From the NCBI GenBank assembly GCA_963724765.1, contig CAVRVY010000001.1, positions 864,001 through 928,000 on the forward strand: a stretch of 64,000 bases of DNA. Direction: 5' to 3'. The position numbers and the translations under genes were made by a program. A model generated the notes under the pieces. That model searched no databases, had not been told where the DNA came from, and saw nothing but the letters and a program-made list of their open reading frames with translations. The stretch is from an uncultured delta proteobacterium. GTDB lineage: Bacteria > Desulfobacterota > Binatia > Binatales > Binataceae. Shown here piece after piece: positions 4,309 through 19,699 of the stretch; position 1 is the stretch's first letter; every line of letters begins with the position of its first letter.

Positions 4309-4325
4309 GAGCGCGCGTGGGCGGA

Positions 4326-6575
4326 TCAGCGCGGCGCGCTCGACTGGGTCCGCCCGCCGTAGGTGGCATCCGGCGCGGAGCCGGTACTTGCGAGGGCGCG
4401 CGCCTGGCGAGCGGCGCTGGCGAGCCCGCTGCGGTCGAACGTCATCACCATCAGTTCCAGTTCTTGTTCGCCACCAGGATTTTCGGCGGTCACGATCGGT
4501 GTTGCGCGGATTTTCAGCGCGTCGTCCCGATACGTCGCGCTCAAGGCGGAGAGCGCACCGCGCGAGCCGAAAGTCCCGACGTCGATTGTGCCGCCGCGAT
4601 GGCTTTGCGCCCAGAGCCCGTTGGAGATGCGGATGCTGGGACCGCCCAGCCAGTCGTCGCGAATAAAGCCTGCCTGCTCGAGGCGCTTTGGGCTGAGTTG
4701 AGCCAAATCGGCGCCGCTCTGAACGTATTGATCGACGGCGTCGAGCAGCGCGCCGAATCGTGCCAGGTCGACACGGCGTTCGAGGTCGAGCGGCTTCAGA
4801 TCGCGCCAAGGGGCGAGCGCGGCGGGCGTAAAGCGATAGATGAGAACTCCGCCAGCCATAGCCGGCGCGGGACCCAGCGCGGCCAGCACGGTGCGGTACT
4901 GCTGGCGCTGCTGCGGGTCCGGACTATCCTTGATGGAGGCGTCGAGCAGCGCGGCGGTCACCTGATGAGCCGCCAGAAACGCCTTGACCTGCAATTCCGG
5001 ATCGGGGAGATAACTGCCGTTGAATAGCGCGACCATCGCGGGCCAGCGCTCGAACTCCGCCGGCGGCGGCCCGGTCCATGCGCCGGCCATGCGAAAGTAC
5101 ATGTCGCTCTGCGCCTGCCACATCAGGCTGTTGCCCCGCCATCCGTAGGGCACCGGCAGTACGATTTCAGTGGGCTGCAGATAATCGCGGTACGCGCCAC
5201 TTAAAAAAAACGGTGGCGTATCAACCGGCGTGTCCCAGAATGTTGAGGACAGACGCGGCATCGCGAACAACACTGCGGCGAGCGCGACGGTATACTTGAC
5301 CGCGATGGAGGCGCTACTCGAGGCGAGCCACATCGCGACGATTAGCCCAGCGAGAAATGCAACATAGAGCGTGAAGCGAACGGGCATCGCGTTGCCGATA
5401 AGCGGCAGCACGCCGAGTAGCGCTCCTGGCATTAGCATAAGTCGGCGACCGCCGACGCTAAGCCATGGACCACAGGAAAGGATGGTGGTGATCAGCATCA
5501 TCCACAGCAGGAGCCGGGTACGCGCCTCGCGCCAACGCCGCCACGTGAAGACGGCGATGATCGCGAGCAGCACCGGGCCGAGGTAACAGAAGCCGACGTA
5601 GGTTACGGTGCTTGGCACCCGCTCGAACGCTTGCGCCACCACGCCAAGGCGGGCGAGTTCGCCCGTCCACGAGGGCAGTACGAGGAAGAGCAGATCGGCG
5701 CTGAATAGGAACGGCTGCCACATCGGGGCCTTGGGCGCCGCCGTGGAGAAGAAGAAATAGAGGTAGGGCGAGACCACGGCCAGCGCGATGACGTAGCTGA
5801 TGACAATCGGCATGATCAATGCGCGCAGGCGCCGGCGCCGGCGCGTATCGCTTTCGAACAGGATGAATGCAAGCGCGAATGCAATCCCGCTGACGATCGT
5901 GGCCATCGCAAAGACTTCCAGCGAGATCAGAAATTCTATGACCAGCATGGATGCCAGCGCTCCGACGAAGCCTTGCGGCCCTATCTCATCGTTGAACGCG
6001 CGCAGCACGAACCACAGTGACAGGACGATCGGGAAAACCAGCAGAAGCTGCGGGTCACCTTCCCACAGCCAGTGGATCATGTAGCCCGAGAAACCGAACA
6101 AGTATCCGCCAATCAGCGATGCCCACCACGATCCAGTGACATAGCGGTAGAGCACAAACGTGCTCCAGGCGCTGAGCGGAAGCGCGAGCAGGAATACCAC
6201 GTTCAGGGAGGCGACCGGCCCCAGCGCACGGGTGATCGGCGCCAGTATCAGGCCGATCAGCGGCATCCAGGTCGTCCACGCCATATTGAACGTCGCCGGC
6301 GCCCATAACAGATTCGTATGGAAAGGATTTATGCGATGCGCGACCGCATGCGCCAGCCACTGCAAAAACCACGCGATCAGTGCGGGATCGCCCACGGCCT
6401 TGCCCACGTGCCGAGTGGTGAAGTGTCCGACGAGGCCGCGTCCGAAGAACAGCATCGACAACGCGAGGTAGACGCCGAGCGCGCCCAGTCCGTAGCGATC
6501 GCGAGCCGACGCCCGTTTTATCGCAGCCGCCGGCGGATGACAGTCGCGGGCGGGCGCGTCAAGCGATGCGCTCAT
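4326..6575 (-). CDS. GT-C/YfhO-like membrane glycosyltransferase, paralog copy 3
   Basis: 749 aa; GDPALIAWFLQWLAHA, NPFHT..WAP.TFNMAWTT, MWQAQSDMYFRMAGAW. Start overlaps the methyltransferase stop (TGATG). Confidence 0.8.
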   Translation of the reverse strand: MSASLDAPARDCHPPAAAIKRASARDRYGLGALGVYLALSMLFFGRGLVGHFTTRHVGKAVGDPALIAWFLQWLAHAVAHRINPFHTNLLWAPATFNMAWTTWMPLIGLILAPITRALGPVASLNVVFLLALPLSAWSTFVLYRYVTGSWWASLIGGYLFGFSGYMIHWLWEGDPQLLLVFPIVLSLWFVLRAFNDEIGPQGFVGALASMLVIEFLISLEVFAMATIVSGIAFALAFILFESDTRRRRRLRALIMPIVISYVIALAVVSPYLYFFFSTAAPKAPMWQPFLFSADLLFLVLPSWTGELARLGVVAQAFERVPSTVTYVGFCYLGPVLLAIIAVFTWRRWREARTRLLLWMMLITTILSCGPWLSVGGRRLMLMPGALLGVLPLIGNAMPVRFTLYVAFLAGLIVAMWLASSSASIAVKYTVALAAVLFAMPRLSSTFWDTPVDTPPFFLSGAYRDYLQPTEIVLPVPYGWRGNSLMWQAQSDMYFRMAGAWTGPPPAEFERWPAMVALFNGSYLPDPELQVKAFLAAHQVTAALLDASIKDSPDPQQRQQYRTVLAALGPAPAMAGGVLIYRFTPAALAPWRDLKPLDLERRVDLARFGALLDAVDQYVQSGADLAQLSPKRLEQAGFIRDDWLGGPSIRISNGLWAQSHRGGTIDVGTFGSRGALSALSATYRDDALKIRATPIVTAENPGGEQELELMVMTFDRSGLASAARQARALASTGSAPDATYGGRTQSSAPR

Positions 6576-7243
6576 CAGGCGGCCTTCTCGAGCAGCCAGT
6601 TGAAATACAGCGGCAGACCGGGAACCAGGCGCAGCCGCGCATGCCGCGTAACCCGCAAGCCATTGCGATTGAAGGCGTTGGCCACGGCCCGCGGCGTGGT
6701 CACATGGTGGTGGTCGATACTCTTAAAGCCGATCGCGCGAAAGCCCAACTCCATCATCGTGTTTACCGCCGGCATGCCGAGAAGAAAACGGCCACCCGGC
6801 CTGAGCACACGCGCGACCTCGCTCAGTCCCTGCTCGTACTGAAGTAGATGCTCGAAGACAGAGAAGCTGAGCGCCAGGTCGAACTCCGCGTTTTCGTAGG
6901 GCAGTTTATATACACTGCCCCGGATGAGCGTGGCGGTGCGCCCGTGGCTGCCGAGCCACGCGTGCACGGGGGCCGGGTCGGCGTCGAGATCGATGCCGTG
7001 CAGTTCGTCGACGCTGGCGGCGATCGCGAGCAGCACCGCGCCTGCGCCATATCCGATCTCGAGCGCCCGGGCGTAGCGGCGATCGGCGATCATCCGCAGT
7101 CCGAGATTGATCCGTTCGCGAAAGAATCGCCCGATGAGCGGCCGTCTGTAGTAGGCGATCGGATCGGTCGGGCCATTGGGGACGAGGCCCTCCAACAGGC
7201 TCGGAGTCAGTTGTAAATCAGCTTGAGGGCGGTCGTGTGTCAC
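6575..7243 (-). CDS. Class I SAM-dependent methyltransferase (Methyltransf_11-like)
   Basis: LEIGYGAG motif I, GIDLD, LPYENAEFDLALSFSVFEHL, EVARVLRPGG. Likely start GTG 7243; the ORF-track extension overlaps copy 4. Confidence 0.85.
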   Translation of the reverse strand: MTHDRPQADLQLTPSLLEGLVPNGPTDPIAYYRRPLIGRFFRERINLGLRMIADRRYARALEIGYGAGAVLLAIAASVDELHGIDLDADPAPVHAWLGSHGRTATLIRGSVYKLPYENAEFDLALSFSVFEHLLQYEQGLSEVARVLRPGGRFLLGMPAVNTMMELGFRAIGFKSIDHHHVTTPRAVANAFNRNGLRVTRHARLRLVPGLPLYFNWLLEKAA

Positions 7244-7259
7244 GAAGCGATACTCGCTT

Positions 7260-9572
7260 TCATCGGATCTCCTGAGGGTTTGACGGCGTGACGCCTGAAG
7301 CGAGCGCCTCAGACGGCGCCACCGCTGATTCGTGCGGCCCTTCCTCGCCAGTGGCGGCCACTTCGGCCGCGCGAGCAAGCCCCCTGCGGTCGAATTCCAT
7401 AACCATCATTGCCGCGTCGTTGGTCGAGTTCGCGGCCGGCGGCGTCAGGCGCGAGGGGTAGGGGAAATAGATCGTTGAGGCCTGGGCGCTGTAGCGATCG
7501 ATTGTCGATTTCAGCGCCGCGTAGCTGCCCTCGATTCCGACCTCGATAGTGCTGCTCTTCGACACACTGAGAATCGATTCAACATGGAAAATCGGATTAC
7601 CGACGTGGTCGTGGCTGGGAAAGGGCTCGCCGCCGAACCAGTCGAGCGGCACCAGTCCAAGTGCTTGAACCGCTTGGGGTGTCAGCTTTGCCGGATCGCG
7701 GCCTTGAGCAAGATATCGCTGTGCCGCGAGCACTAGCGTTTCGAAGCGCGCGCGTGCGGCGCGCTGCTGCATCTCGAGAGCGGTCAATCGGCGGTACGGA
7801 GCGAGCGTTTGCGGCGCGATCCGGTACAAGGTGATGCCGCCCACCTCGAGCGATGGCGTATCCAGCGAGGCGAGCAGCTTGTCCGTCGCGATATGCTCCC
7901 GGTCAATCGTCGGCCATCGCAGCCACGTCGCGGCAGTGCGCAGACTGCCCAGGCGCAGAACGAGATATTGAGTGCGTGGTCCGACGATTACCGCACTGAC
8001 GTTATGGTTGGCCAGGTAAGCCTTCAACTGATCTCCCGCATCGGGCACGCCGGCGATGCTGTAAAGTCCGGACATAATCGGCCAGCCGCTATCCTCTTCG
8101 GGCATCGGCGGTGCGAGCCCTACGTACCCGCCCGCCATCCGAAAATACATGTCGGTGGTCGCCTGCCACAGCATCCCTTCGCCGAACAATCCAAAAGGCA
8201 GCACCAGCACGGTCTCGCCGGGCGCGACGTATTGGCGATAGACACCACTGCCGAAAAACGCGGGGATTTCGGCCGGCGTGGTCCAGAACGAAGGCGACAA
8301 GTTTGGCAGCATGAACGGGATGATCGCCAAGCCGAGCGTCCAGCGCCAGGCATTACGTCTGTCGTCGCTGTTCTTTCGATCTGAGGCGAGCCACATCGCG
8401 ACGATCACCGCCATAGTCAGGTAGGCGTATATCATGAAGCGCGAGGGCAGCGCTTTGTCGAGAAGCGGTAACACGGTCAGCGCCGCGGCCGGAAGCGGCA
8501 GAAGGCGGTAGCCTGCGATTTCGAGCAAAGGCCCCAAAGCGAGAACGCAGGCGATCGCAAGCATAGAAATCATGAATCTGCCGGTACGATCATGCCATCG
8601 CTCTCGCGCGAACAGCGCGATTATCACAAGCAGCGGCAGGCCCATATATCCGCTGGACTCGGAAAGTTCGGCGAGGAATCGGCGCGCGATTGTACCGCTT
8701 ACCGCAAGGCTGCCGAGCTCATTCGAACTGGTCGGGACAAGGAAGTTGGCCAGGTCAATGGAAATGCGCCAAGGCGAAAAAATCACTCCGTGCGGCGTTC
8801 CAAATGCGAACATGTAGTAGAGATAGGGCAACAGGACCACTGTACTTATGGCGTAGGCCACGATGATCGACGACGCCACCGAACGAAGACGCGTCCACTC
8901 CTCGGCAGACGCGGACCGGGCGGCCAATGCGAAAGCGATCGCGCCGACGAACGCGGCGGTGGCGAACACTTCGGGCGACATCAGGAACTGCGCAAGCAGC
9001 AGCGCCACCACAATGGCCACGAAGCTCCGCGTCTTGAGCTCGCCCGCGAGACGGCGCAACGTCGCCCAGACCGCCAGCGGGAGCGGAAAAACCAGCAGTA
9101 GGAAGACGCTGCCCAGCATTCCGGTCAGCATCGATGGCGAGAAGGCGAAGAGCCACCCGCCGAGCCAGGCCGGCCAGAAGCGATGAACGATGTAGCGGCA
9201 GAGCACGAACGCCGACCATCCTGTGAGCGCCGGCGTGATCAGATGCAGGAGGTTGCAGGCGACGATCGGTCCCCACAGCCGCGTAATCGGATAGAGCGCG
9301 CAACTGGCCAGCGGAAAATCGGTGGTCCACGCAAGGTTGACGCCCGAGGGCGCCCATACCAGCGCGGTAAGAAATGGGTTGAGGCGATGCGAGACGGCGT
9401 GAGCCCACCAAGCCAGGAACCAGATGTATTGTTGCACGTCGGGCCCGCGGCCAACGTATGCGGACGCCGGATGAGCGAAGACTCCGCGCCCGAAGAACAG
9501 GACCGACAGCGCCAGATAAGATAGGAACGCAGCCCCTCCTCGGCGGTCGAAAAGTTGAGCCGCGGGTCTCAT
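7260..9572 (-). CDS. GT-C/YfhO-like membrane glycosyltransferase, paralog copy 4
   Basis: 770 aa intact; GRGPDVQQYIWFLAWWAHA, WAPSGVNLAWTTDFP, MLWQATTDMYFRMAGGY. Confidence 0.8.
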   Translation of the reverse strand: MRPAAQLFDRRGGAAFLSYLALSVLFFGRGVFAHPASAYVGRGPDVQQYIWFLAWWAHAVSHRLNPFLTALVWAPSGVNLAWTTDFPLASCALYPITRLWGPIVACNLLHLITPALTGWSAFVLCRYIVHRFWPAWLGGWLFAFSPSMLTGMLGSVFLLLVFPLPLAVWATLRRLAGELKTRSFVAIVVALLLAQFLMSPEVFATAAFVGAIAFALAARSASAEEWTRLRSVASSIIVAYAISTVVLLPYLYYMFAFGTPHGVIFSPWRISIDLANFLVPTSSNELGSLAVSGTIARRFLAELSESSGYMGLPLLVIIALFARERWHDRTGRFMISMLAIACVLALGPLLEIAGYRLLPLPAAALTVLPLLDKALPSRFMIYAYLTMAVIVAMWLASDRKNSDDRRNAWRWTLGLAIIPFMLPNLSPSFWTTPAEIPAFFGSGVYRQYVAPGETVLVLPFGLFGEGMLWQATTDMYFRMAGGYVGLAPPMPEEDSGWPIMSGLYSIAGVPDAGDQLKAYLANHNVSAVIVGPRTQYLVLRLGSLRTAATWLRWPTIDREHIATDKLLASLDTPSLEVGGITLYRIAPQTLAPYRRLTALEMQQRAARARFETLVLAAQRYLAQGRDPAKLTPQAVQALGLVPLDWFGGEPFPSHDHVGNPIFHVESILSVSKSSTIEVGIEGSYAALKSTIDRYSAQASTIYFPYPSRLTPPAANSTNDAAMMVMEFDRRGLARAAEVAATGEEGPHESAVAPSEALASGVTPSNPQEIR

Positions 9573-9673
9573 GTTAGATAAGTCGATGCGCTGAGTCGGC
9601 CATGCCGCTGGCTAGCGACGCTCCTGCCAGCATATCGTCTCCGGCCCCCTCCTCCGTCATCGGACAGCCCCAC

Positions 9674-11931
9674 TCACTTACCGGTATCGCGCTTCTGCGG
9701 CGTCGGAGGGAAATCAGCGGCCTGGCGCCGCGTCGCCAGCGCGGCGGCGCGCTCCAGCCCTGAGTGATCGAACGTCATCACCATCATTGCCGGATCGCGC
9801 GGCATCGAAGCGGGCGAAAGCGGAACAGGATAAGGAAAATAGATTTGACTGGCATTAGCACGGTAGGTCCGGATCGTCGACTCGAGCAAATCGTACCGGC
9901 CCTCGATTCCCACCGCTATAAGGCCGGCCTGCGATGGGCCGAGGACAGCTTTGAAATGAAAATAATGAGGATTGGCGTTCGTCTCTGTGAATACCGCGCC
10001 ACCGAACCAGTCACCTGGCAGCAGGCCGAGTTGTTGGGCCCGTTCCGGGCTGAGCGAGGCGAGGTCGCCGCCGAGAACGAGGTAGCGCTCGGCTGCGAGC
10101 AGTAGCGCTTCGAACCGCGCGCGGTCCATGCGTCGCTGCATGTCCAGCGCGGTCAGATCGCGATAAGGAACGAGAGTCTGTGGTGAGATCCGGTATAGCG
10201 TAACGCCTCCGATATCGATCGGCTGGGTGTCCAGGGAGGCGAGCAGCTTTTCTGTCGGAACACGCTCCCGATCAATGGTTGGCCATAGCAGCCAGTTATC
10301 AATGACGCGCCGACCGCCCATGCGCGCGACCAGATAGTAGGTACGAGATCCAACTATAATCGCGCTCACGCCGTGGTTGGCGAGATAAGCCTTCAATTGA
10401 TCACCGGCTTGGGGCACACCAGCAACGTTATAAAGCCCCGCCATGATCGGCCAGCCGCTATGCCCCTTGGGTATCGGAGGTGCATAACCGGCGTAGCCGC
10501 CTACCGTTCGGAAATACATGCCCGTTACTGCCTGCCACAGCATCCCCTCGCCGAGATATCCGAAGGGCAGTGTCGCAACAGTCTGGCCCGGAGCGATGTA
10601 TTGGCGATACAGACCGCTGCTGAAGAAGACGGGAACCTCGACCGGTGTTGCCCAGAACGATGCAGACAGGTTGGGCAACATAAACGGAATGATCGCCAAG
10701 CTGAGCGTCCAGCCCACCATTCGTCCCCCGCTCTCTCGACTCAACCACATGGATATCAATACGGCTGCCGCCAGGTAGGCGTATATCGTGAAGCGCCCGG
10801 GCAACGCTTTTTCGAGCAGTGGTATAGCCGCAAGCGCCGCACCCGGAAGCGGCATGATGGCGTGGCCGGCGATTTCGAGAAACGGCCCCATCGCGAGAAT
10901 GCAGGCGCAGGCGAGCATACATATCACGTATCTGCCGACGCGGTCGTGCCAGCGTTCACGCGCGAACAGCACGATGATCGCCAGCAGCGGAAGTCCAAAG
11001 TAAGCGCGGCTCTCCGACAGGTCCGCGCGAAAATAAGAGGCAATGGCGTTGAACAGCGGCAGGCGTCCGAGTTCGTTGACGTTGGTTGGTACGAGAAAAT
11101 TCTAAAGTCCGCTGCGTTGTTTTTGGGCGATAAAATGGTTCCCTCCGGCATCCCGAACACCAGCATGTAATACAGATAGGGCGACAGGATGACCGCACTG
11201 ATTGCGTATGCCGCGCCGATCGACCATGCCGCCGACACAATCCGTCCGTACTCGTCAGGTGAGGAGGCCGTGCGCGCGGCAAGCGTGATCGCGATCGCGC
11301 CGAAGAGTGCGGCGCTGGCGAAAATCTCGACTGACAGCAGAAACTGCGCGATCATCAGCAGCGCCAACAGGGCTACGAAGCTCCGCGCTTTCAACTCACC
11401 GGCGAGGCGTCGCAACGTGCCCAAACCAGGAGCGGTACCGAAAACACCAGCATGAGGAGTCCACCACCGATCATCGCGGTCAACATGTAAGGCGAAAAAG
11501 CGAAGAGGCATCCACCAAGCCACGCTGGCCAGAAGCGCCGTACAACTTCGCGGCGCAGGCACGAATGCGGACCATCCCGCAAGTGGCAAACCGATCAAAT
11601 GCGCGACATTGCAGGAGACGATCGGCCCATATCAAGCCGCGTAACCGGATAGAGCAGACAGCTAGCCAACGGAAAATCAGTGGCCCAGGTCAGGTTGACG
11701 CCCGAGGGAGCCCATATTGCAGTGGTCAGGACCGGATTCAGACGATGCAGAATGGCGTGCGCCCACCAGGCCACAAACCAGATGTTCTGTACCGCGTAGG
11801 GCCGCGGCCGAGATAGGCGGCCGCCGGATCGGGCGAGCACGCCACGTCCGAAGATGAGGAGTGACAACGCCAGGTAGGATAGAAATGCACTCACGGCCTG
11901 GCGGCCAGATAGAAACCGTGGGTGCCGTCAT
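9674..11931 (-). pseudogene. GT-C/YfhO-like paralog copy 5; 5' half frameshifted several times
   Basis: Homology is split over ORFs 11677..11931, 11595..11894, 11391..11582, 10924..11598 and 9674..10972. The C-terminal 432 aa are intact and closest to copy 4. Confidence 0.75.
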
Positions 11932-13591
11932 TTCCCTCGGATCGATAAGTCCAATCGGCCTCCGCGGCTTGTTTCGCTTCGCTTTCGCTTCAACATCGTC
12001 TGAGCCTGCTTTGTCATCGGATGTCCTGTTTCAGTGGCCGACTGCACGCGTCGACGCCGTAGGAACCAAATCAGCTTCTGCTGCTGTATCGTTGCCGCCG
12101 CGGCGTGCTCCAGTCCCGCATGATCGAACGTCATCACCATCATCGCGGGCTCGCGCGGCACCGAAGAAGGCGAGAACGGCTGAGCGGTAGCGGCCTCGAC
12201 CCTGTCTTCCATTCCAGCAGCCAGCTTGGCCTTGGCGCCGAACGCTCCTGAGCGAAGGCCGCAATCCTGCAGCCCTCAGCCCCCAGGGTTTCGCCCAAAA
12301 ACTCGGACAGACTGCTCGCCTCCTTAAATACCCAACCACTCGAGATTGGCGGCATCACGCTCTACCGAGTTGCGTCACAGAAGCGGATTATCGGCTCGAG
12401 CGGGGTGGCCGTCGAACTGAGGGCCCGTACGAGGCTCTCGCCCCGTACCGTAACTTGACTGCGCTCGAGATGCAGCAGCGCGCCTCCGTGTACGTTATGG
12501 TCGGCCAGCGCACCGTGGTCGCCACAACGGGCTGATTTCCTATGCGCAGGACCAGATAGTAAGAGCGAGATCCGACGACAATTGCGCGTACGTCGTGATT
12601 GGCCATGTAGGCCTTCAGCTGGTCGCCAGCCTCAGGCACTCCGAGGTCATTGTACAACCCTGTCATGATCGGCCAGCTTCTATGCTCGGCCGGCACCGGC
12701 GGTACGCCTGACGAATAACCTCCAGCCATCCGAAAATACATGTCGGTTATTGCCTGCCAGAGCATTGCTTCGCCGAGATATCCATAGGGCAATACCATCA
12801 CGTTCTCGCCAGGAACAATATATTGACGATAAAGGCCGCTGCGGAAGAACTTCGGAACCTCGGCGGAGGTTGTCCAGAACGACGCGGACAGATTGGGTAG
12901 CATGAATGGAATGATCGCTAGGCCGAGTCCCCATCGCAGCTCTTTTCGCCCGCTCTCGTCAGCAAGACACGTTGCGACTATTATGGCGAGTGCTAGGTAG
13001 GCGTATGGCATCAGGCGTCCAGGCTGCGCCGTGTCTATTAGCGGCAAGGCCGCAAGGGCCGCGCCCGGAAGTGGCAAGACACGGTAGCCCAGGATCTCAA
13101 GTAGAGGTCCCATCGCGAAGATGCAGGCGGCCGCGAACATGGACACCATGAATCTGCCCCCCGCGGTCGTGCCAGCGCTTACACGCGAACAGCGCGATGA
13201 TCGCGAGCATCGGTAAACCTATGTAGCCGCCGCTATCGTAAAGGGTCGCAATAAACCGATGCGTAGTGGCCCGAAACAGCGGAAGGATACGATCGGCCCC
13301 CACAACCGAGTAACCGGATAGAGGAGGCACGCTGCCAGAGGAAAGTCGCAAGCCCAGGCAAGGTTGCCGCCAGAGGGTGCCCAGACCACCTTGGGTAAGA
13401 GAGGATTCAGATGATGCGAAAGGGCGTGGGCCCACCAGGCCAGAAACCAGATGTAGACCTGCGGGTCTGGCCCCTGACCGATATAGGAGCTCGCCGGATG
13501 GACAAGCACGCCGCGCCCGAAAGATCAGGACCGACCCTGCCAGATATGACAGAAACGCAGCGCCGGCATGGCTTCGCGTCTGCTTGTGCAT
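11928..13591 (-). pseudogene. GT-C/YfhO-like paralog copy 6; internal deletion, frameshifts and scrambled 3' part
   Basis: Starts MHKQTRSHAGAAFLSYL (ATG 13591 after GGAGG). GQGPDPQVYIW in 13219..13509. Jumps from GPIVS directly to LPLFRATTHRF near 13285, losing several TM helices. 12388..13149 is the middle; 12198-12487 is inverted and shuffled; the PREPAMMVMTFDH tail lies in 11928..12212. Confidence 0.75.
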
Positions 13592-13702
13592 CCTCCAACT
13601 CCTACGCAATCAATCCGCCCCGCTGCATCTCCGAGGACGCGCGCTCCGCCGGATGTCAAATCACTTTCCGTAATCTCTTGGAGCGGTAATGGGCCGTCTC
13701 GT

Positions 13703-13731
13703 AATCTACAAGAGGTTAAAGCATCGTACAA
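13703..13731 (-). promoter_or_regulatory. Possible sigma70-type internal promoter upstream of copy 6
   Basis: Minus strand TTGTAC-N17-TAGATT in an AT-richer intergenic gap. Confidence 0.3.
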
Positions 13732-13733
13732 CT

Positions 13734-16057
13734 TTACAAGGCGAGATTGATGCATAAGGGCGGCGGATTTCGGAGGGGGGCGTGGTCTATCGAGTCACGG
13801 GGGATGCTGGCCGGTAACAGCAATGTCGGGTCCGCGTCCTGATGGGCGGCTGATGCGGCAGCGCGGGCGAGGCCAGCGCGGTCGAACGTAATCACCATCA
13901 TTGCCGGTCCGCGCGGGGTCGAAACCGGCAACCAGCGGCGTCGGGTATGGAAAATAGATTCGAGTAGCATCGGCGCGGTAGCTCTGTATTATCGGCTCGA
14001 GCGCATCGTACGAGCCCTCGATTCCCACCGCTGTCCCATCCGGCTGCGCGGGGCCGAGAACAATGCTGGAATGAAAGATCGGGTTGGAGTCGCCGGCGCC
14101 GGGCAGCGCTCCACCGAACCATCCTTGCGGTAGCAGGCCGAGTTGCTGCGCACGTCCGGGGCTGAGCGATGCGAGTTCGCCGCCCATGTCCAGATAGCGT
14201 TGAGCGCCGAACAGCAGTGCCTCGAACCGGGCCAAGTCGGCGCGCTGCTCCATCGCGAGCGCGGTCAGCTTGCGATACGGCGCAAGCGTTTGCGGTGTCA
14301 GTCGATAAAACGTGACGCCGGCAGCTTCGATTCCGGCCACGCCCAGTGAGTCCAGCATCGCTAAAGTCGCGTCGCGCTCGGGCGCGAGTGTCGGCGCTCG
14401 CAGCCAAGTGGTGGCGGTGCGGCGTCCGCCGATCGAGCCGACGCGGTACTGACGGCGCGGTCCGCCGATGACGGCACCGACGTCGTGATTAGCCAGATAC
14501 GCTTTCAACTGATCGCCGGCCGCGGGGACACCCCTTATCTGATACAGCCCCGCAATAATCGGCCAGCGGCTATGTTCCTCGGGCACTGGCGGCGCGAAAG
14601 TCACGTAACCCTCCGCCATCCGGAAATACATACCGCTCACCGCCTGCCACAGCATCCCTTCGCCCAGTATTCCATAGGGCAGCACGATCACGGTCTCGCC
14701 CGGCGCGAGGTATTGGCGATAAACGCCGGCGCTGAAGAAGGCGGGTAATTCGGCCGACGTTACCCAGTACGATGCCGACAAATTGGGGAGCATGAATGCC
14801 ACGATCGCGAGTCCGAGCGCCCAGCGCAGTTTCTTCTTGCGCTGTCCTCGGCGAGCCACATCGCGACGATCACGGCCAGCACCAGGTACGCGTACAACAT
14901 GAAACGCGCGGGCAGCGCCTTGTCGAGCAGCGGCAGGCGAGCGAGTGCGGATCCCGGAAGACCCATAACTATTCGTCCGGCGAATTCGAACCGGGGCCCC
15001 ATCGCAAGCACGCAGACCACGATCAGAAGATGGACGAGGAATCTACCGCCCGGCGCATTCCAACGCTCGCGCGCGAAAAGAATCACGGTCGCAAGCAGGG
15101 GCAGCCCGAGGTAGGCGCCGGTCTCGGCCATCTCGGCGCGGAACTGATGCGCGATCGGAGCGAAAAGCGCCACCCGGCCAAGCTGATTGACCGTGGTCGG
15201 GATAGCGAAGCTCGTGAGGTCGATCGCGAAATGCCAGGGCGAGAAAATTTCTCCAGGCGCAGTCGGGAAGGCGAACATGTAATAGAGGTACGGCGAGACG
15301 ATGACCGCCGCGACCGCATAAGCGGCGGCGATAAGCGTCGCGGTCGCCAGCAGGCGGCGGCGCTCTGGTGGCGCCATTGCGGGCGTCGCGAGCAAAAACG
15401 CGATCGCTCCAAACAGCGTGGCACTGGCGACTATCTCGGCGAACAACAAAAACTGTGCGGCGATGAGAATCGCGAGCGCTGCCACGAAGCCCTGCGCGCC
15501 CAGGTTGCCGTCATCCGCCGCAGCGTCACATACGCGCCGAGCGGTATCGGCCACATCAGAACCAGGTCCATGTTGCCGAGCATCCGGCTCAACACATACG
15601 GGGAGAAAGCGAAGAGCAATCCGCCGAACATCGCCGGCCCCCATCCACCCACGACGTAACGGCAGAGCGCGAACGCACTCCATCCCGCGAGTGCCGGCGA
15701 CAGCAGGCAGAGCAGATTGTACGAGACGATCGGCCCGAAGGCGCGCGTGATCGGATATACCAGCCACGCCGCGAGCGGCATGTTGGCCGTCCAGGCGAGA
15801 TTGACGCCCGAGGGAGCCCAGATGACGCTGGTCAGAAATGGATTGAGGCCGTGCGAGATCGCATGTGCCCACCAGGCCATGAACCCGATGTATAGCTGCG
15901 GATCGGGTCCACGGCCGACGTAGACGGTCGCCGGATGGCCGATGATGGCGCGACCGAAAATGAGCAGTGACAGTGCGAGGTAGAGCAAAAATGCGCCTGC
16001 GGCCTGACGGTCGAAGAGGCGGCGAACGCGGGTTAATTCTTTGGCTTCTTCGGTCAT
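13734..16057 (-). pseudogene. GT-C/YfhO-like paralog copy 7; about three frameshifts
   Basis: Continuous homology across ORFs 15431..16057 (GRGPDPQLYI), 14760..15872, 13795..14859 (MLWQAVSGMYFRMAEGY) and 13734..13970 (PAMMVITFDRAGLARAA). Confidence 0.75.
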
Positions 16058-16111
16058 CCTGAGCGAAGCGAGTCTGCGAATCGACTCCGGCAGCCTTCGC
16101 TCAGGATGACC
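16052..16111. repeat. REP-like palindromic element, copy A
   Basis: Perfect 17-bp inverted repeat GGTCATCCTGAGCGAAG...CTTCGCTCAGGATGACC; related copies at 45127 and 53984. Confidence 0.8.
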
Positions 16112-16232
16112 CAGGAATTGAAGAGCTGAAAAATGATTCCAAGGAGCACAAACGCTTTTTCCGACTCATTCACACTAGCAACCCACGAGTGCCGTCGCTA
16201 TGCAACAGCGGTGCGGGTGAGCGGATCGCGGA

Positions 16233-18500
16233 TCAGCGCGGTGTCAATGTAGCCGAAGAATTCGAGTCGATAGTAGATGTGGACTGATTCGAATGAGATT
16301 TGGAGTCGAGATCGAGCCGCGGCGGCTCTGTGAGCGCCAATGCGGCGGCGCGAGCGAGTCCCTGACGATCGAAGGACATCATAAGTGTGTAATAGTACAC
16401 TCCAGCCGCGGCGAATAAAGTTTCTTTCGGCCGCAAGCGGGAAGGAAAATAGATACGTCGCGCGTACCCACCATAGCGATCGATTAACGGGCGCAAGGCA
16501 GTGCGGGATCCCAACAGCCCGAGCGTGATGATGCCGTCGGGTTCAACGCGCATATACAGTCGATAGTCAGTTGCTCGCGATGGCCTCGGCAGCCAGGCGG
16601 CCGGCAAACGTCCCAGCTTCGCGGCGCTTGTGGGTGAAAGCCCGGCAGGGTCGGCGCCCGAGGCGAGGTAGCCTTGCGCGGCGATCAGCAGCGCGCCGAA
16701 CCGTTGCGCATCCGCCAGCGTTTCCATCCGCGTCCAATCAAGTCCGCGGTAAGGCGCAAGCGTTGCGGGCGGCACGCGGTATAGCGTGATACCGCCCGCC
16801 GCGATCGCCGGCGTGCCCAGCGCCTCAACGATCGGTTCGATTGAAGGAAAATAAACCGGCATGGGATTGTTGACCATAAGGACCGCCGTCACCTGATGGC
16901 TGGCGGCAAAGGCTTTCCACTGATCGGCCGGGTCTGGAATCGTCGCGAGCTGATTGGCAGAGCGGACGATCGGCCATCGAAGATAAGACACAGGGCTGAG
17001 CGGCGGGTATCCGCCGGCCAGGCGAAAGTACATCCCGCTCAGCGCCTGCCACATCATACAGGCGTCGGCCTCGCCCCACGCATACGGCAGCGTCGCGACG
17101 ACCTCGCCCGGCGCAAGATACTGCCGGTAGATCCCGGTCGTAAAAAAACCCGGCGACGGCGCGACACTGTTGGGCTCGGCCCAAACCCGTGCCGACGGGT
17201 TGGGAAAGAGCGACACAAACACCAACCCGCCGGCGATGGCACGCGTCAACGCGCCGCGGTCCGGCGCCGCCAGCCACCTCGTGGCGAGGACGGCCAGCGT
17301 CAGGAACAGGTAAACGGTGAAGCGCAGCGGCAGCGCCTGATTGATTAGCGGCGTGCGATGGAGCAGCGACCACGGGAGCTTAAAGTAGATGTTGCCGGCC
17401 AGGTGGAGCCGCGGACCCATTGCCGCCACCGCCGTGACTATCAGCATCAGGCCGAGCAGTCTCGCCTCCAACGTGCGCCGGCGCTCGAGCGTAAACCAAA
17501 TCGCGATCGCCAGCAGCGGCAATCCAACATAGGCGGCCTGTTCGGCGACGCCGCTGGTGAAGCCGGCGGAGGCGCGGCGAAAGAGCCCGATCGCCGATCC
17601 TAGCGCGACCGTCCTGGTGGGAACCAGGAAATTCAACAGATCGGTGGAGTGCCAGCTCGGCGAATAGATCGGAGTCGTGCGAAAACCGGCGAACAGGTAG
17701 TACAGGTACGGACCGACGAGTATGGCCGTGCCCAGATAAGCGAAAAAAATCGGCACCGCCAGCTCCGCGATACGCCGGCGCAGATCGCGCTCGCCCATCG
17801 CCCACGCCCCTGCCAGCGCAAGCGCGCCGAAGATAGTCATCGTGGCGAGAATCTCAGTCGCGATCAGAAACTGCGCCGTCGTCAGCGCGAGCAATCCCAG
17901 CGTGAAGGTGCGCCTTTCGATGCGCCGCTGCAGTCGCGCCAGTACCAGGTAAACGGCGAGCGGGATGAGGAACGCCGCGAGCAGATTCAGATGCCCGCCG
18001 AACATCTGCGCGAGCATGTAGGAGGAAAAACCGAAGATGTAACCGCCCAGCAGCGAAGGCTCTAAGCGTTCGGTGAGACTGTGGCAAAGCAGGAATGCGG
18101 TCCACGCCGTGAGTGCGGGACATGCGACGCAGAGCAGGTTGAAAGCCGTAATCGGCCCCACGGTTGCGGTCAGCGGCAGCGCGAGCAGGCTTAGCAGTGG
18201 AATCGAGGTCGACCAGGTCAGATTGAAACCGGCGGGCGCGAAGATGAGCTTGCTGATGAACGGATTGAGATGATGGGCGATCGCGTACGGCCACCATACC
18301 AGGCACCAGATGAAGAAGGCCTGATCGATCCCGCGTCCCAGGTAGATGGTGGTGAAGTGAGACGCGTCGGCGCGCGCGAACAGCAACGCCGAGAAGCCCA
18401 GGTAAATAATCAGCGCTGCAAGGCGCGGCCGGCTCTTGACCGCCGCGGCGAGCGCCGCGGAAATGCTTCGCTGGCGCGAGTCGGCCTCCATCACCGGCAC
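16233..18500 (-). CDS. GT-C/YfhO-like membrane glycosyltransferase, paralog copy 8 (first in transcription order)
   Basis: 755 aa; GRGIDQAFFIWCLVWWPYA, NPFISK.IFAPAGFNLTWSTS, GGHLNLL, MWQALSGMYFRLAGGY. Confidence 0.8.
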   Translation of the reverse strand: MPVMEADSRQRSISAALAAAVKSRPRLAALIIYLGFSALLFARADASHFTTIYLGRGIDQAFFIWCLVWWPYAIAHHLNPFISKLIFAPAGFNLTWSTSIPLLSLLALPLTATVGPITAFNLLCVACPALTAWTAFLLCHSLTERLEPSLLGGYIFGFSSYMLAQMFGGHLNLLAAFLIPLAVYLVLARLQRRIERRTFTLGLLALTTAQFLIATEILATMTIFGALALAGAWAMGERDLRRRIAELAVPIFFAYLGTAILVGPYLYYLFAGFRTTPIYSPSWHSTDLLNFLVPTRTVALGSAIGLFRRASAGFTSGVAEQAAYVGLPLLAIAIWFTLERRRTLEARLLGLMLIVTAVAAMGPRLHLAGNIYFKLPWSLLHRTPLINQALPLRFTVYLFLTLAVLATRWLAAPDRGALTRAIAGGLVFVSLFPNPSARVWAEPNSVAPSPGFFTTGIYRQYLAPGEVVATLPYAWGEADACMMWQALSGMYFRLAGGYPPLSPVSYLRWPIVRSANQLATIPDPADQWKAFAASHQVTAVLMVNNPMPVYFPSIEPIVEALGTPAIAAGGITLYRVPPATLAPYRGLDWTRMETLADAQRFGALLIAAQGYLASGADPAGLSPTSAAKLGRLPAAWLPRPSRATDYRLYMRVEPDGIITLGLLGSRTALRPLIDRYGGYARRIYFPSRLRPKETLFAAAGVYYYTLMMSFDRQGLARAAALALTEPPRLDLDSKSHSNQSTSTIDSNSSATLTPR

Positions 18501-18561
18501 GTTTCTACCGACGCGCGCCTGCCGATACGCTCCGGTCGATACGCTCGTCGAGATGCCGGGT

Positions 18562-19638
18562 TCAGCGCTCGGCCGCGGCCGAGCGCGCGCGGCTTGAGGG
18601 CGCCAGCGTTTCCGCCGCTTCGAGGAGGCATCGCTCAGTGGTCGGCCAATCGATACAGGGGTCGGTAACCGAGACTCCGTACTTGAGCTGCGAGCGGTCG
18701 GCCATCAGCGGCTGGTTGCCGGCGCTGATGAAACTTTCGAGCATCACGCCCATGATGGCGCGACTGCCCGCGCGCACCTGTTCGCACAGCGCGGCGAACA
18801 CTTCGGGCTGTTTGCGATAGTCCTTGCTGGTCTGCGCGTGCGAACAATCGACCATCACGCGCGGCTCCAGGCCCGCCTTGCGCAGGATGCGGCAGCATTC
18901 GTCGATACTGAGCGCGTCGTAGTTGGGCGTACGCCCGCCGCGCAGCACCACGTGGGTGTCCGGATTGCCGCTGGTGCGCACGATCGCCGTCATGCCGTCC
19001 TGCGTGATGCCGATGAACGAGTGCGGGCGGCGCGCTGACTCGATCGCGTTGACCGCGACCTGCAGGTTACCCTCGGTGCTGTTCTTGAAACCGACCGGCA
19101 TCGAGAGCCCGCTCGCCATCTCGCGATGGGTCTGCGATTCGGTGGTGCGAGCGCCGATCGCCGTCCATGAGACCAGGTCGGCGATGTACTGCGGCGTGAT
19201 CGGATCGAGCATCTCGGTGCCGGCCGGCAGCCCGAGCGCGTTGATCTCGAGCAGCAGGCGTCGCGCGCGGAACAGCCCCTCGCGCATGTCGCACGAGTCG
19301 TCCATGTGCGGGTCGTTGATCATGCCCTTCCATCCGACGGTGGTACGCGGCTTCTCGAAGTACACGCGCATCACGATGAACAGCCGCTTTTCGAGTTGTG
19401 CGCGCAGGCGGGCCAGGCGCGCGGCGTAGTCCAGCGCGGCGGCCGGGTCGTGGATCGAACAGGGCCCCACGATGCACATCAGGCGCGCGTCTTCGCCGCG
19501 AATGATGCGGCGCACGGTCTGACGAGCCTCGACCACGGTGCGGGCGGTGCGGTCGTCGATCGCGAGTTGCTCCTTGAGCAGGCGCGGCGCGACCAGCGCT
19601 TCAGTGGTAATGACGTGCAGGTCTTGAATTTTTTGCAT
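18562..19638 (-). CDS. aroF: 3-deoxy-7-phosphoheptulonate (DAHP) synthase, class I alpha (AroF/AroG/AroH type)
   Basis: VGPCSIHD, MRVYFEKPRTTVGWKG.INDP, IGARTTESQTHREMASG, DCSHA, YGVSVTDPC. The isoenzyme cannot be resolved from sequence alone. Confidence 0.93.
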   Translation of the reverse strand: MQKIQDLHVITTEALVAPRLLKEQLAIDDRTARTVVEARQTVRRIIRGEDARLMCIVGPCSIHDPAAALDYAARLARLRAQLEKRLFIVMRVYFEKPRTTVGWKGMINDPHMDDSCDMREGLFRARRLLLEINALGLPAGTEMLDPITPQYIADLVSWTAIGARTTESQTHREMASGLSMPVGFKNSTEGNLQVAVNAIESARRPHSFIGITQDGMTAIVRTSGNPDTHVVLRGGRTPNYDALSIDECCRILRKAGLEPRVMVDCSHAQTSKDYRKQPEVFAALCEQVRAGSRAIMGVMLESFISAGNQPLMADRSQLKYGVSVTDPCIDWPTTERCLLEAAETLAPSSRARSAAAER

Positions 19639-19699
19639 CGGACGACCGTATATCTTTACCGGAAAGGGCGACTGATAATAAAGGTACGCTGGCGCGAGG

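What the first reader, a model, noticed from the sequence alone, without database searches (positions are those of the whole stretch)
12198..12490. A ~290-bp piece of copy 6 is cut into about six short blocks, mostly inverted, out of order and joined at microhomologies
Seen: inside a minus-strand gene, the PLUS strand encodes paralog peptides DPVFHSSSQLG (12198-12230; cf. NPIFHSSIVLG in copy 7), LGAER.LSEGRNPAALSPQGFAQKLG (12231-12307; cf. AAERYL..GGDLASLSPERAQQLG), SDRLLASLNTQPLEIGGITLYRVASQ (12303-12380; cf. TDKLLASLDTPSLEVGGITLYRIAPQ), GVAV..EGPYEAL (12402-12439) and LAPYRNLTALEMQQRAS (12437-12487). LEPIIR (12383-12400) stays on the minus strand. The native order A-B-C-D-E-F appears as D,C,A,F(rev),E,B, which one inversion cannot produce. 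Junctions share short overlaps (TCGGA, CTC, tandem CTTGGC, palindromic CTCGAG). Inference: serial template switching (MMBIR/FoSTeS-like) or end-joining repair in a bacterium; the alternative is an amplification or assembly chimera.
Basis: seen in the sequence. Interest (0 to 1): 0.75.

Follow-up and report, generated by a model that had tools for sequence, protein, structure and literature searches.

The report
Scrambled, mostly inverted scar in dead gene
About 310 bases near the end of a dead gene copy in a soil bacterium are cut into short pieces, mostly flipped and reordered, which looks like a one-off DNA-copying accident but cannot yet be told from a sequencing artefact.

Summary
Window 12184-12495 lies in copy 6 of eight tandem minus-strand paralogs, which encode DUF6311/YfhO-like membrane proteins. 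Here the plus strand carries paralog coding sequence. Blocks A+B (nhmmer E 1.6e-23) and C (7.7e-8) are secure. E and F are short but beat 200 of 200 shuffles. D is weakest (5 of 200 shuffles reach it).

One refinement: A and B are a single inverted 132-position segment. It is split exactly at one point by a 53-nt insert made of F (native strand) plus E (flipped).

The native order, flankL-F-E-D-C-B-A-flankR, is kept in 11 of 11 loci from relatives. Reaching the observed order takes at least 6 simple inversions, plus the loss of about 130 nt. Plus-strand paralog hits occur nowhere else in the 20-kb array.

Copy 6 is independently dead, with a 565-nt deletion and a frameshift.

My best reading is one serial template-switching event (FoSTeS/MMBIR-like or serial slippage) in a pseudogene transcribed head-on to replication. 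Microhomology, inferred from paralogs, appears at about 4 of 7 junctions. Ku and LigD are present, so end-joining stays possible.

No independent reads or assemblies cover the junctions, so an amplification or assembly chimera is not excluded (about 0.25). No function is implied, and interest is moderate to low.

The parts
12031..13600 (-). Copy 6 of the paralog array. It is a pseudogene remnant of a gene for a ~750-aa DUF6311/YfhO-like membrane protein.
   Evidence: tblastn with c4 finds four separate pieces: aa 13-27, 27-105, 298-333 and 331-556. The C-terminal piece matches c5 aa 384-417.
12055..12183 (-). Native-orientation C-terminal flank (flankL).
   Evidence: nhmmer profile positions 504-610 on the minus strand, E 4.4e-17. 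tblastn against c5, 12179-12078, E 5e-12.
12184..12230 (+). Block D, flipped. It corresponds to the native ..NPIFHSS..LG stretch.
   Evidence: blastn against c7, 12199-12219, 85.7% of 21 nt. tblastn 12180-12230 against c7 aa 252-269, 55.6% identity, E 0.15. 5 of 200 shuffles reach its score. This is the weakest block.
12231..12308 (+). Block C, flipped. It carries one internal frameshift.
   Evidence: nhmmer profile positions 229-304 on the plus strand, E 7.7e-8.
12307..12381 (+). Block A, flipped. It is the first part of one continuous inverted segment A+B.
   Evidence: nhmmer profile positions 77-208 on the plus strand, 12307-12490, E 1.6e-23, with a 53-nt insert state. tblastn E 1.2e-7.
12382..12402 (-). 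Block F, in native orientation but displaced. It forms the left part of the 53-nt insert.
   Evidence: nhmmer profile positions 443-465 on the minus strand, E 0.0056. 16 of 16 nt match c7. 0 of 200 shuffles reach its score.
12403..12440 (+). Block E, flipped. It forms the right part of the insert. Its core is 12419-12440.
   Evidence: blastn against c7, 86.4% of 22 nt. 0 of 200 shuffles reach its score.
12435..12490 (+). Block B, flipped. It resumes exactly where A stopped in the profile.
   Evidence: nhmmer alignment. blastn against c4, 12437-12484, 85.4% of 48 nt, E 5.4e-11.
12496..13158 (-). Native-orientation flank (flankR), corresponding to c4 aa 331-556.
   Evidence: tblastn E 5.5e-102, 64.6% identity.
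13284..13285 (.). Junction of a ~565-nt internal deletion (c4 aa 105 to 298), with 2-3 nt of microhomology.
   Evidence: The blastn pieces of the closest relative abut in the window but lie 567 nt apart in G014.
13285..13564 (-). N-terminal remnant of copy 6 (c4 aa 13-105), with a frameshift at about 13520.
   Evidence: tblastn frames change at 13520/13521. A short-read contig lacks one base at 13520.

Best explanation
The stretch is a real, non-functional scar in a dead gene copy. It was made in one event by serial template switching during DNA synthesis, of the FoSTeS/MMBIR or serial-replication-slippage type.

Inferred course of events: replication here runs from low to high coordinates, head-on to the array genes. 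The growing plus (leading) strand left its template near the end of flankL. It then copied three successive pieces of the opposite (lagging-strand) template, each starting further ahead: D, then C, then A. Next it made a short excursion, copying F on the original strand and then E on the opposite strand. It returned to exactly the base where A had stopped and copied B. Finally it went back to its proper template at flankR.

The result is blocks flipped 'in place', about 130 nt skipped, and one small displaced insert.

Shown: the block structure, its uniqueness, and the dead state of the gene. Inferred: that there was a single event, that it was replicative, the strand assignments, and the microhomologies.
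For: - Block map: flankL(-), D(+), C(+), A(+), F(-), E(+), B(+), flankR(-).
- A and B are one profile-continuous inverted segment. The 53-nt insert falls between adjacent profile positions, which is what a switch-and-return excursion leaves.
- D, C and A+B keep their native left-to-right order while each is flipped. This matches piecewise copying of the opposite template.
- At least 6 simple inversions would otherwise be needed, within 312 nt.
- There are no other plus-strand paralog hits in the 20-kb array.
- Microhomology inferred from paralogs: C|A 5 nt, F|E 3-4 nt, E|B 5-7 nt, B|flankR about 4-8 nt imperfect.
- Copy 6 also has a 565-nt deletion with 2-3 nt microhomology and a frameshift, so the scar sits where selection would not remove it.
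- The plus strand is the likely leading strand. GC skew is positive across the region and the rRNA operon lies on the plus strand 9 kb away. The array is therefore head-on to replication.
- Most other genes in the window give full-length Pfam matches, so the assembly is not generally garbled.
- Complex, microhomology-joined rearrangements with inverted parts are documented in E. coli lac amplification (PMC2621351, passages read).
Against: - No read or independent assembly spans any junction.
- Three junctions (flankL|D, D|C, A|F) show 0-2 nt of inferred microhomology. At D|C a 6-nt motif is present twice rather than consumed.
- No segment is duplicated beyond an ambiguous 6 nt or less. The hallmark copy-number gain of replicative mechanisms is therefore absent, and A|B and E|F reuse single native breakpoints, which also fits cut-and-paste.
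- The ancestral sequence is unknown. The closest relative is only 75-85% identical, so breakpoints are uncertain by a few bases.
- Block D is only weakly supported.
- The same features (inverted pieces, intervening deletions, short complementarity) describe in-vitro MDA chimeras (PMC1855051, abstract read).
Confidence: 0.45

Rival explanations
1. Sequencing, amplification or assembly artefact. A chimeric molecule made in vitro by polymerase strand switching (for example MDA), or a faulty consensus, was built into the contig. On this reading the organism carries an ordinary, possibly just truncated, copy 6.
For: - The genome is a single 4-contig assembly.
- No independent support was found. The public short contigs of >=99% identical strains cover 22 of 30 bins of 11200-13800 but none of 12157-12504.
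- Two exact-pattern scans of metagenome contigs gave 0 hits.
- The junction-spanning ORF has no near-identical protein from another contig.
- MDA chimeras are mostly inverted sequences with intervening deletions, primed at 2-21 nt of complementarity (PMC1855051 abstract), which is the same pattern.
- Short contigs disagree with the window by 1-2-nt indels at 5 sites in the array, so local consensus quality is open to question.
Against: - A 1.43-Mb contig implies consensus over many long reads, which outvotes single chimeric molecules.
- Seven junctions in 312 nt would be extraordinary for an artefact too.
- The scramble sits in a copy that is independently dead, whereas 5 of the 8 array copies are intact.
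- Other genes in the window look intact.
- Junction overlaps of 0-7 nt are far too short for graph or overlap misjoins.
Confidence: 0.25
2. Local shattering followed by end-joining. Several close double-strand breaks released fragments of about 20-130 bp. Ku/LigD non-homologous end-joining re-ligated them in random order and orientation and lost some of them, like chromothripsis on a miniature scale.
For: - Ku (173.7 bits) and an 895-aa ORF with a LigD polymerase domain (300 bits) are present.
- A|B and E|F each reuse one native breakpoint with no base lost, as clean cuts would.
- There is net loss and no duplication.
- Three junctions have 0-2 nt of overlap.
Against: - Fragments of 20-50 bp are unlikely to survive and be re-ligated.
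- Five of six blocks share one orientation, and D, C and A+B keep their native order, which is not the random outcome expected.
- Return to the exact base after the F+E insert is more typical of a polymerase excursion.
- I know of no precedent in bacteria. One literature search found no primary report among the 12 titles listed of 21 hits.
Confidence: 0.12
3. Stepwise decay. Several independent small in-place inversions occurred over time in a neutrally evolving pseudogene. Each would be a single short template switch between tiny inverted repeats, accompanied by separate deletions and one small transposition.
For: - Single in-place micro-inversions are a known mutation class (PMC5453318, passages read).
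- Earlier notes of this scan report them in other genomes (unchecked).
- Copy 6 has had time to collect a deletion and a frameshift.
Against: - This needs at least 6 inversions, or 3-4 inversions plus a transposition and 4-5 deletions, all inside 312 nt.
- The other roughly 19.7 kb of the array, including two other decaying copies, shows no flipped block at all.
Confidence: 0.1
4. Programmed multiple-inversion switch (shufflon-like) acting on the gene's C-terminal end.
For: There are several short invertible-looking blocks at the 3' end of a gene in a multigene family.
Against: - No inverted repeats of 12 nt or more flank the blocks. Only 4 weak pairs are found in 12000-12700, and none pairs block borders.
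- No recombinase family appears among the 47 ORFs of >=180 aa scanned in 21-64 kb or in the array.
- The blocks are consecutive parts of one domain, not alternative ends.
- The plus-strand frames carry stops.
- The gene is dead.
- Relatives always show one order, in 11 of 11 loci.
Confidence: 0.02

Closest known systems
FoSTeS / MMBIR complex rearrangements (Hastings et al. 2009, PMC2621351), including complex E. coli lac amplicons
   Same: Both show several template switches in one event. The segments come from nearby sequence in both orientations and are mixed with deletions. Junctions carry 2-15 nt of microhomology. The process is documented in a bacterium.
   Different: The scale here is tens of bases within about 450 nt, not kilobases to hundreds of kilobases. 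There is no duplication or amplification. It is a natural fixed allele in a pseudogene, not a selected amplicon. Microhomology is only inferred, and at about 4 of 7 junctions.
Short-range template-switch mutations. These include the quasipalindrome/Ripley mechanism and the four-point model of Loytynoja and Goldman 2017 (PMC5453318), as well as serial replication slippage (Chen et al. 2005, known to me only as cited in that paper).
   Same: The scale is the same and the outcome is the same: a stretch replaced by its reverse complement in place, copied from the opposite strand within one fork.
   Different: The four-point model describes one switch-and-return. Its authors explicitly do not model multiple successive rounds. 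Here at least three adjacent flipped blocks plus an inserted excursion are needed.
MDA chimeras (Lasken and Stockwell 2007, PMC1855051)
   Same: Both show inverted sequence with intervening deletions, and priming at a few complementary bases.
   Different: MDA chimeras are in-vitro products seen in single reads, usually with one junction. Here seven junctions sit in the consensus of a 1.43-Mb contig. Whether the library was amplified is unknown to me.
Chromothripsis with end-joining
   Same: Both are clustered, show random-looking order and orientation, lose fragments, and reuse breakpoints.
   Different: This case is about a million-fold smaller and lies in a bacterium. The orientation and order are not random-looking, and there is an exact return after the insert.
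Shufflons and other multiple-inversion systems (R64 Rci shufflon, Min of p15B; recalled, not from a call)
   Same: Both involve several small segments inverted at the 3' end of a gene.
   Different: There are no crossover repeats, no recombinase, no alternative open ends, and no variation among relatives. The gene is dead.

Membership tests
FoSTeS/MMBIR-type complex rearrangement | Several junctions created together, joining segments from nearby sequence in direct and inverted orientation. | tested here: met
   There are seven junctions in 312 nt, and all blocks come from a native stretch of about 450 positions. That they arose together is inferred from the minimum of 6 inversions otherwise needed and from the absence of flips elsewhere in the array.
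FoSTeS/MMBIR-type complex rearrangement | Microhomology of a few bases at the junctions. | tested here: inconclusive
   Inferred from paralogs only: 3-7 nt at C|A, F|E, E|B and B|flankR, and 0-2 nt at flankL|D, D|C and A|F.
FoSTeS/MMBIR-type complex rearrangement | Replicative copying that leaves duplicated or triplicated segments. | tested here: not met
   No block is present twice. Only an ambiguous 6 nt or less is shared by E and F. There is a net loss of about 130 nt.
Single short template switch (four-point model) | One switch-and-return with a single reverse-complemented fragment. | tested here: not met
   Five flipped blocks in non-native arrangement need at least 6 inversions.
Site-specific multiple-inversion switch (shufflon-like) | Inverted crossover repeats at segment borders. 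| tested here: not met
   The repeat finder on 12000-12700 gives 4 weak inverted pairs (11-19 nt, 74-92% complementary), and none brackets a block.
Site-specific multiple-inversion switch (shufflon-like) | A recombinase gene nearby. | tested here: not met
   None of the 47 ORFs of >=180 aa in 21-64 kb matches a recombinase family at E <= 1e-5. ORFs under 180 aa were not scanned.
Ku/LigD end-joining product | The host encodes Ku and LigD. | tested here: met
   Ku PF02735 scores 173.7 bits. ligD_pol TIGR02778 scores 300 bits in an 895-aa frame. This is permissive only.
Ku/LigD end-joining product | Blunt or 0-4-nt overlap joints without templated copying. | tested here: inconclusive
   Junction overlaps range from 0 to 7 nt as inferred from paralogs.
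Amplification or assembly chimera | The junctions are absent from independent unamplified reads. | not testable with these tools
   Only Logan contigs of 151-235 nt from 4 runs of 1 study were available, and none lies on 12078-12507. The source reads are not available to me.
DUF6311/YfhO-like membrane protein family (the gene that carries the scar) | Significant match to the family model. | tested here: inconclusive
   Intact paralog c4 matches Pfam YfhO at 23.2 bits, below the 28.5 cut-off. NCBIfam gives 0 families for 3 paralogs. Atlas feature search puts DUF6311 clusters first, score 0.97.

The most novel reading that the evidence does not exclude
This is a natural, fixed, single-event rearrangement with seven junctions, a miniature 'chromoanasynthesis', in a wild soil bacterium. 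It would be the footprint of a stalled leading strand that repeatedly copied the lagging-strand template piece by piece, in a gene array transcribed head-on to replication next to an rRNA operon. If so, serial inter-strand template switching operates at the scale of tens of bases in bacteria outside the laboratory.
Probability: 0.4. Interest if true: 0.55.

Novelty: new member of a known kind. Interest (0 to 1): 0.35.

Why it matters
If the junctions are real, this is a rare natural record of a multi-step template-switching accident at base-pair resolution in an environmental bacterium. It survives only because it struck a gene that was already dispensable. Such scars show which error-prone replication or repair routes actually operate in the wild. 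They also warn that clusters of 'substitutions' in pseudogenes can be rearrangements.

The scar has no functional consequence for the organism and does not define a new system. If it is an artefact, its value is as a caution about local errors in long-read metagenome genomes.

Tried and rejected
- **Public reads.** The look-up of sequencing runs gave 4 runs of one study, holding 0.10-0.16 of the sampled words. Read laying at 90% likeness laid 14 short contigs (151-235 nt). None lay on 12078-12507 and no joints were reported. This gives no verdict on the junctions either way.
- **Metagenome contigs.** I made two exact-pattern scans, one across the A|F junction and one in the native flank 12507-12536. 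Both gave 0 hits. The tool warns that records of the same or a very near genome may be left out.
- **Protein search.** I searched with the ORF that reads through junctions (12391-13149, minus strand). Only the window's own protein matched at 100%, and the next hit was at 64%. No independent assembly was found.
- **Earlier findings.** Look-ups by place and by sequence returned nothing. The first word search returned nothing. The second gave only single-inversion cases in other genomes.
- **Rfam.** A scan of 11000-14000 gave 0 matches, so the stretch is not a known RNA.
- **Another copy of the segment.** blastn of 12150-12520 against the whole genome found only itself and the native A and B pieces of copies 4, 5 and 7, in opposite orientation.
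- **Shufflon or phase switch.** Rejected: no repeats, no recombinase, no variation among relatives.
- **Inverted duplication followed by deletions.** Rejected by reasoning. The order D, C, A on one strand cannot be a subsequence of any single inverted copy.
- **CTCGAG sites.** I considered the three CTCGAG sites as recombination sites. They are native Leu-Glu codons, present at the same places in the paralogs.
Full report
**Setting**

The window is G000:C1:864001-928000 of a 5.4-Mb, 4-contig genome. Positions 1-18500 hold eight tandem minus-strand paralogs of a ~750-aa polytopic membrane protein:
- c1: 2-2095
- c2: 2092 to about 4300
- c3: 4326-6575
- c4: 7260-9572
- c5: 9674-11912
- c6: about 12031-13600
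- c7: 13795-16057
- c8: 16233-18500

A methyltransferase gene sits at 6575-7378. The family is uncharacterised. Pfam YfhO matches c4 below its cut-off (23.2 against 28.5 bits). NCBIfam gives nothing for 3 paralogs. A feature search puts DUF6311 clusters first. Copies c5, c6 and c7 are broken into several frames. Further family members lie on contig C4.

**Checking the observation**

tblastn of the paralog proteins against 11500-13800 gave:
- native minus-strand matches up to 12496 (c4 aa 331-556, E 5.5e-102);
- native minus-strand matches again from 12179 downward (c5 aa 384-417, E 5e-12);
- plus-strand matches between them: A at 12303-12428 (E 1.2e-7 against c4, 1.75e-8 against c5), B at 12431-12490 (E 3.2e-6 against c7), D at 12180-12230 (E 0.15), and E at 12419-12445 (E 0.70).

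At the nucleotide level, against the window's own paralogs:
- A: 76.6% of 64 nt (E 8e-9), flipped
- B: 85.4% of 48 nt (E 5.4e-11), flipped
- E: 86.4% of 22 nt, flipped
- D: 85.7% of 21 nt, flipped
- C: 88% of 17 nt, flipped
- F: 16 of 16 nt, in native orientation

I built a DNA profile from the native region of 10 paralogs, three from the window and seven from relatives. nhmmer placed:
- profile positions 77-208 on the plus strand at 12307-12490 (E 1.6e-23);
- positions 229-304 on the plus strand at 12231-12308 (E 7.7e-8);
- positions 443-465 on the minus strand at 12402-12380 (E 0.0056);
- the two flanks on the minus strand.

Shuffle controls: 0 of 200 shuffles reach the score of the E+F stretch or of E alone. 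5 of 200 reach the score of D. D is therefore the weakest block.

As a control for the whole idea, tblastn of seven paralog proteins against window 1-20000 gave plus-strand hits (E <= 0.01) only in 12279-12490, 6 of 6 hits.

**Refined anatomy**

The nhmmer alignment shows that A and B are one continuous inverted segment. The profile runs straight through, and 53 nt (12382-12434) are inserted between two adjacent profile positions. The insert is F in native orientation followed by E flipped.

Reading the plus strand from low to high, the order is:
1. flankL(-), up to 12183
2. D(+), 12184-12230
3. C(+), 12231-12308
4. A(+), 12307-12381
5. F(-), 12382-12402
6. E(+), 12403-12440
7. B(+), 12435-12490
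8. flankR(-), from 12496

The native order is flankL-F-E-D-C-B-A-flankR, all on the minus strand. So D, C and A+B are each flipped roughly in place and keep their mutual order. F+E has moved into the A|B boundary, with E flipped.

The native distance between the flanks is about 450 profile positions, but the observed distance is 312 nt. About 130 nt, in four or five small gaps, are missing.

A breadth-first search over signed permutations gives a minimum of 6 simple inversions to reach this order.

**Is it unique to this copy?**

In all 11 loci fetched from relatives, B lies on the strand opposite to the query's flanks. The same holds for:
- A, in 5 of 5 loci with a hit;
- C, for the 2 in-gene hits (two further 17-nt hits at E 0.026 in L009, one on each strand, look like chance);
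- E, in 2 of 2.

F lies on the same strand as the flanks in 6 of 6 loci with a hit. D gave no hit at E <= 0.05 in any of the 11. The order in the relatives is always flankL, F, E, C, B, A, flankR.

All 16 same-genus genomes searched hold the family, and none shows A or B co-oriented with the flank. The scrambled stretch has no second copy in the genome.

**Junctions**

I used the best-matching paralogs as stand-ins for the lost ancestor. Shared bases appear at:
- C|A: a 5-nt motif present at the end of native C in c4, L005 and L008 and just before native A;
- F|E: 3-4 nt;
- E|B: 5-7 nt, a motif that occurs natively at both the A|B and the E|F boundaries;
- B|flankR: about 4-8 nt, imperfect and inverted.

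The other three junctions (flankL|D, D|C, A|F) show 0-2 nt. At D|C a 6-nt motif stands twice in tandem (12225-12236), so it was not consumed as an overlap.

All junction statements carry an uncertainty of a few bases.

**State of the gene**

Copy 6 is dead independently of the scramble.
- About 565 nt (c4 aa 105-298) are deleted at 13284/13285, with 2-3 nt of microhomology.
- The frame shifts at about 13520.
- The longest remaining ORF (12388-13149) ends inside the scrambled stretch.
- The plus-strand frames over the blocks contain stops.
- No Rfam family matches 11000-14000.

Nothing suggests a function.

**Real or artefact?**

This is the weak point. The four public runs found (one study; shares 0.10-0.16) hold only 151-235-nt contigs. 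Nine of the 14 laid contigs match without any difference. None lies on 12078-12507, and no joints were seen, so they say nothing about the junctions.

Two exact scans of metagenome contigs gave 0 hits. The junction-reading ORF has no near-identical protein from another contig.

For reality:
- The contig is 1.43 Mb, so it is a consensus of many long reads.
- Most of the 28 Pfam-matched ORFs among the 47 scanned elsewhere in the window are covered end to end by their models, for example aldehyde dehydrogenase 1-461/461, amidase 1-443/445, and thiolase over both domains.
- The scramble sits in one of the three decaying copies rather than the five intact ones.
- Junction overlaps are far too short for assembly-graph misjoins.

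For an artefact:
- The pattern (inverted pieces, intervening deletions, a few complementary bases) is exactly that of MDA chimeras (PMC1855051, abstract read).
- The short contigs differ from the window by 1-2-nt indels at five sites in the array: 11558, 11632, 11915, 13520 and 13645. That is either strain polymorphism or local consensus error.

I put the artefact at about 0.25.

**Mechanism**

GC skew of the plus strand is positive across this part of the contig. A complete rRNA operon lies on the plus strand at 21280-26971. Both suggest that the plus strand is the leading strand, so the array is transcribed head-on to replication.

On that reading, the block order has a simple interpretation. 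The growing leading strand leaves its template near the end of flankL. It copies three successive pieces of the lagging-strand template, each beginning further ahead (D, C, A). It makes a short excursion (F on the original strand, E on the other). It returns to the exact base where A ended, copies B, and rejoins its own template at flankR.

This is serial inter-strand template switching within one fork. It belongs to the FoSTeS/MMBIR family of models, which draws partly on E. coli lac amplicons. Those amplicons have 2-15-bp microhomology, and about 25% of them are complex (PMC2621351, passages read). It also extends the short template-switch model, whose authors explicitly leave out multiple successive rounds (PMC5453318, passages read).

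Points against a purely replicative reading:
- No segment is duplicated.
- Two native breakpoints are each used twice without loss.
- Three junctions lack microhomology.

These features fit cut-and-rejoin, and the genome does encode Ku and a multidomain LigD. Stepwise independent inversions are unlikely, because they would all have to fall within 312 nt while the remaining array shows none. A programmed inversion switch is rejected.

**Novelty and verdict**

Complex microhomology-joined rearrangements and single in-place micro-inversions are both known. Earlier unchecked notes of this scan report single in-place inversions in other genomes. A seven-junction event at this scale, fixed in a natural bacterial genome, would be an unusual example of a known kind rather than a new kind.

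One search for bacterial shattering-type events returned no primary report among the 12 titles listed of 21 hits. That is weak evidence of absence.

No function is involved. The deciding experiment is a look at the source reads.

Noticed in passing
window 21280-26971 (+): There is a complete rRNA operon: 16S at 21280-22845, two tRNAs at 23125-23198 and 23261-23333, 23S at 23641-26649, and 5S at 26854-26971. It lies about 3 kb beyond the paralog array and on the opposite strand to it.
   Followed up: partly
window 11544-11634, 11907-11915, 13520, 13645: Short public contigs differ from the window by 1-2-nt indels at five sites. These same records also carry nearby substitutions. The pair at 11632 (2 nt) and 11558 (1 nt) brackets the out-of-frame stretch of copy 5. 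The site at 13520 is the frameshift in copy 6. These frameshifts are therefore either polymorphic in nature or consensus errors.
   Followed up: partly
window 13284/13285: Copy 6 lacks about 565 nt (c4 aa 105-298), with 2-3 nt of microhomology at the joint. The closest relative, G014, has the full stretch.
   Followed up: yes
window 9674-11912 and 13795-16057: Copies 5 and 7 are full-length but split over three frames each. The closest relative's counterpart (L002) is also frameshifted in its C-terminal region. The middle of the array therefore seems to be decaying in more than one species.
   Followed up: partly
window 6575-7378 (-): A class I SAM-dependent methyltransferase gene (Methyltransf_11, E 5.6e-16) is embedded between copies 3 and 4 of the array. 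It may work with the membrane proteins.
   Followed up: no
window 2092-4809 (-): The ORF of copy 2 runs about 500 nt upstream of the homologous start (c4 aa 8 aligns at 4263) and overlaps the end of copy 3. This is probably a spurious high-GC extension.
   Followed up: no
window 50451-51680 (-) and 61741-62880 (-): The glycosyl hydrolase family 1 ORF matches in two stretches and is shorter than the model (409 aa against 453). The FAD_binding_4 ORF starts at model position 47. Both are possible truncations or frameshifts.
   Followed up: no
G000:C3:709032-710226 and C3:1449356-1449895: An 895-aa LigD-like frame lies next to a short Ku-like match, and a full Ku gene lies elsewhere on the same contig. 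A second partial ligD_pol match is at C3:1595156-1595482.
   Followed up: no
G000:C4:372814-375027 (-) and C4:1086643-1091178 (+): Three or so further members of the same membrane-protein family lie outside the array.
   Followed up: no
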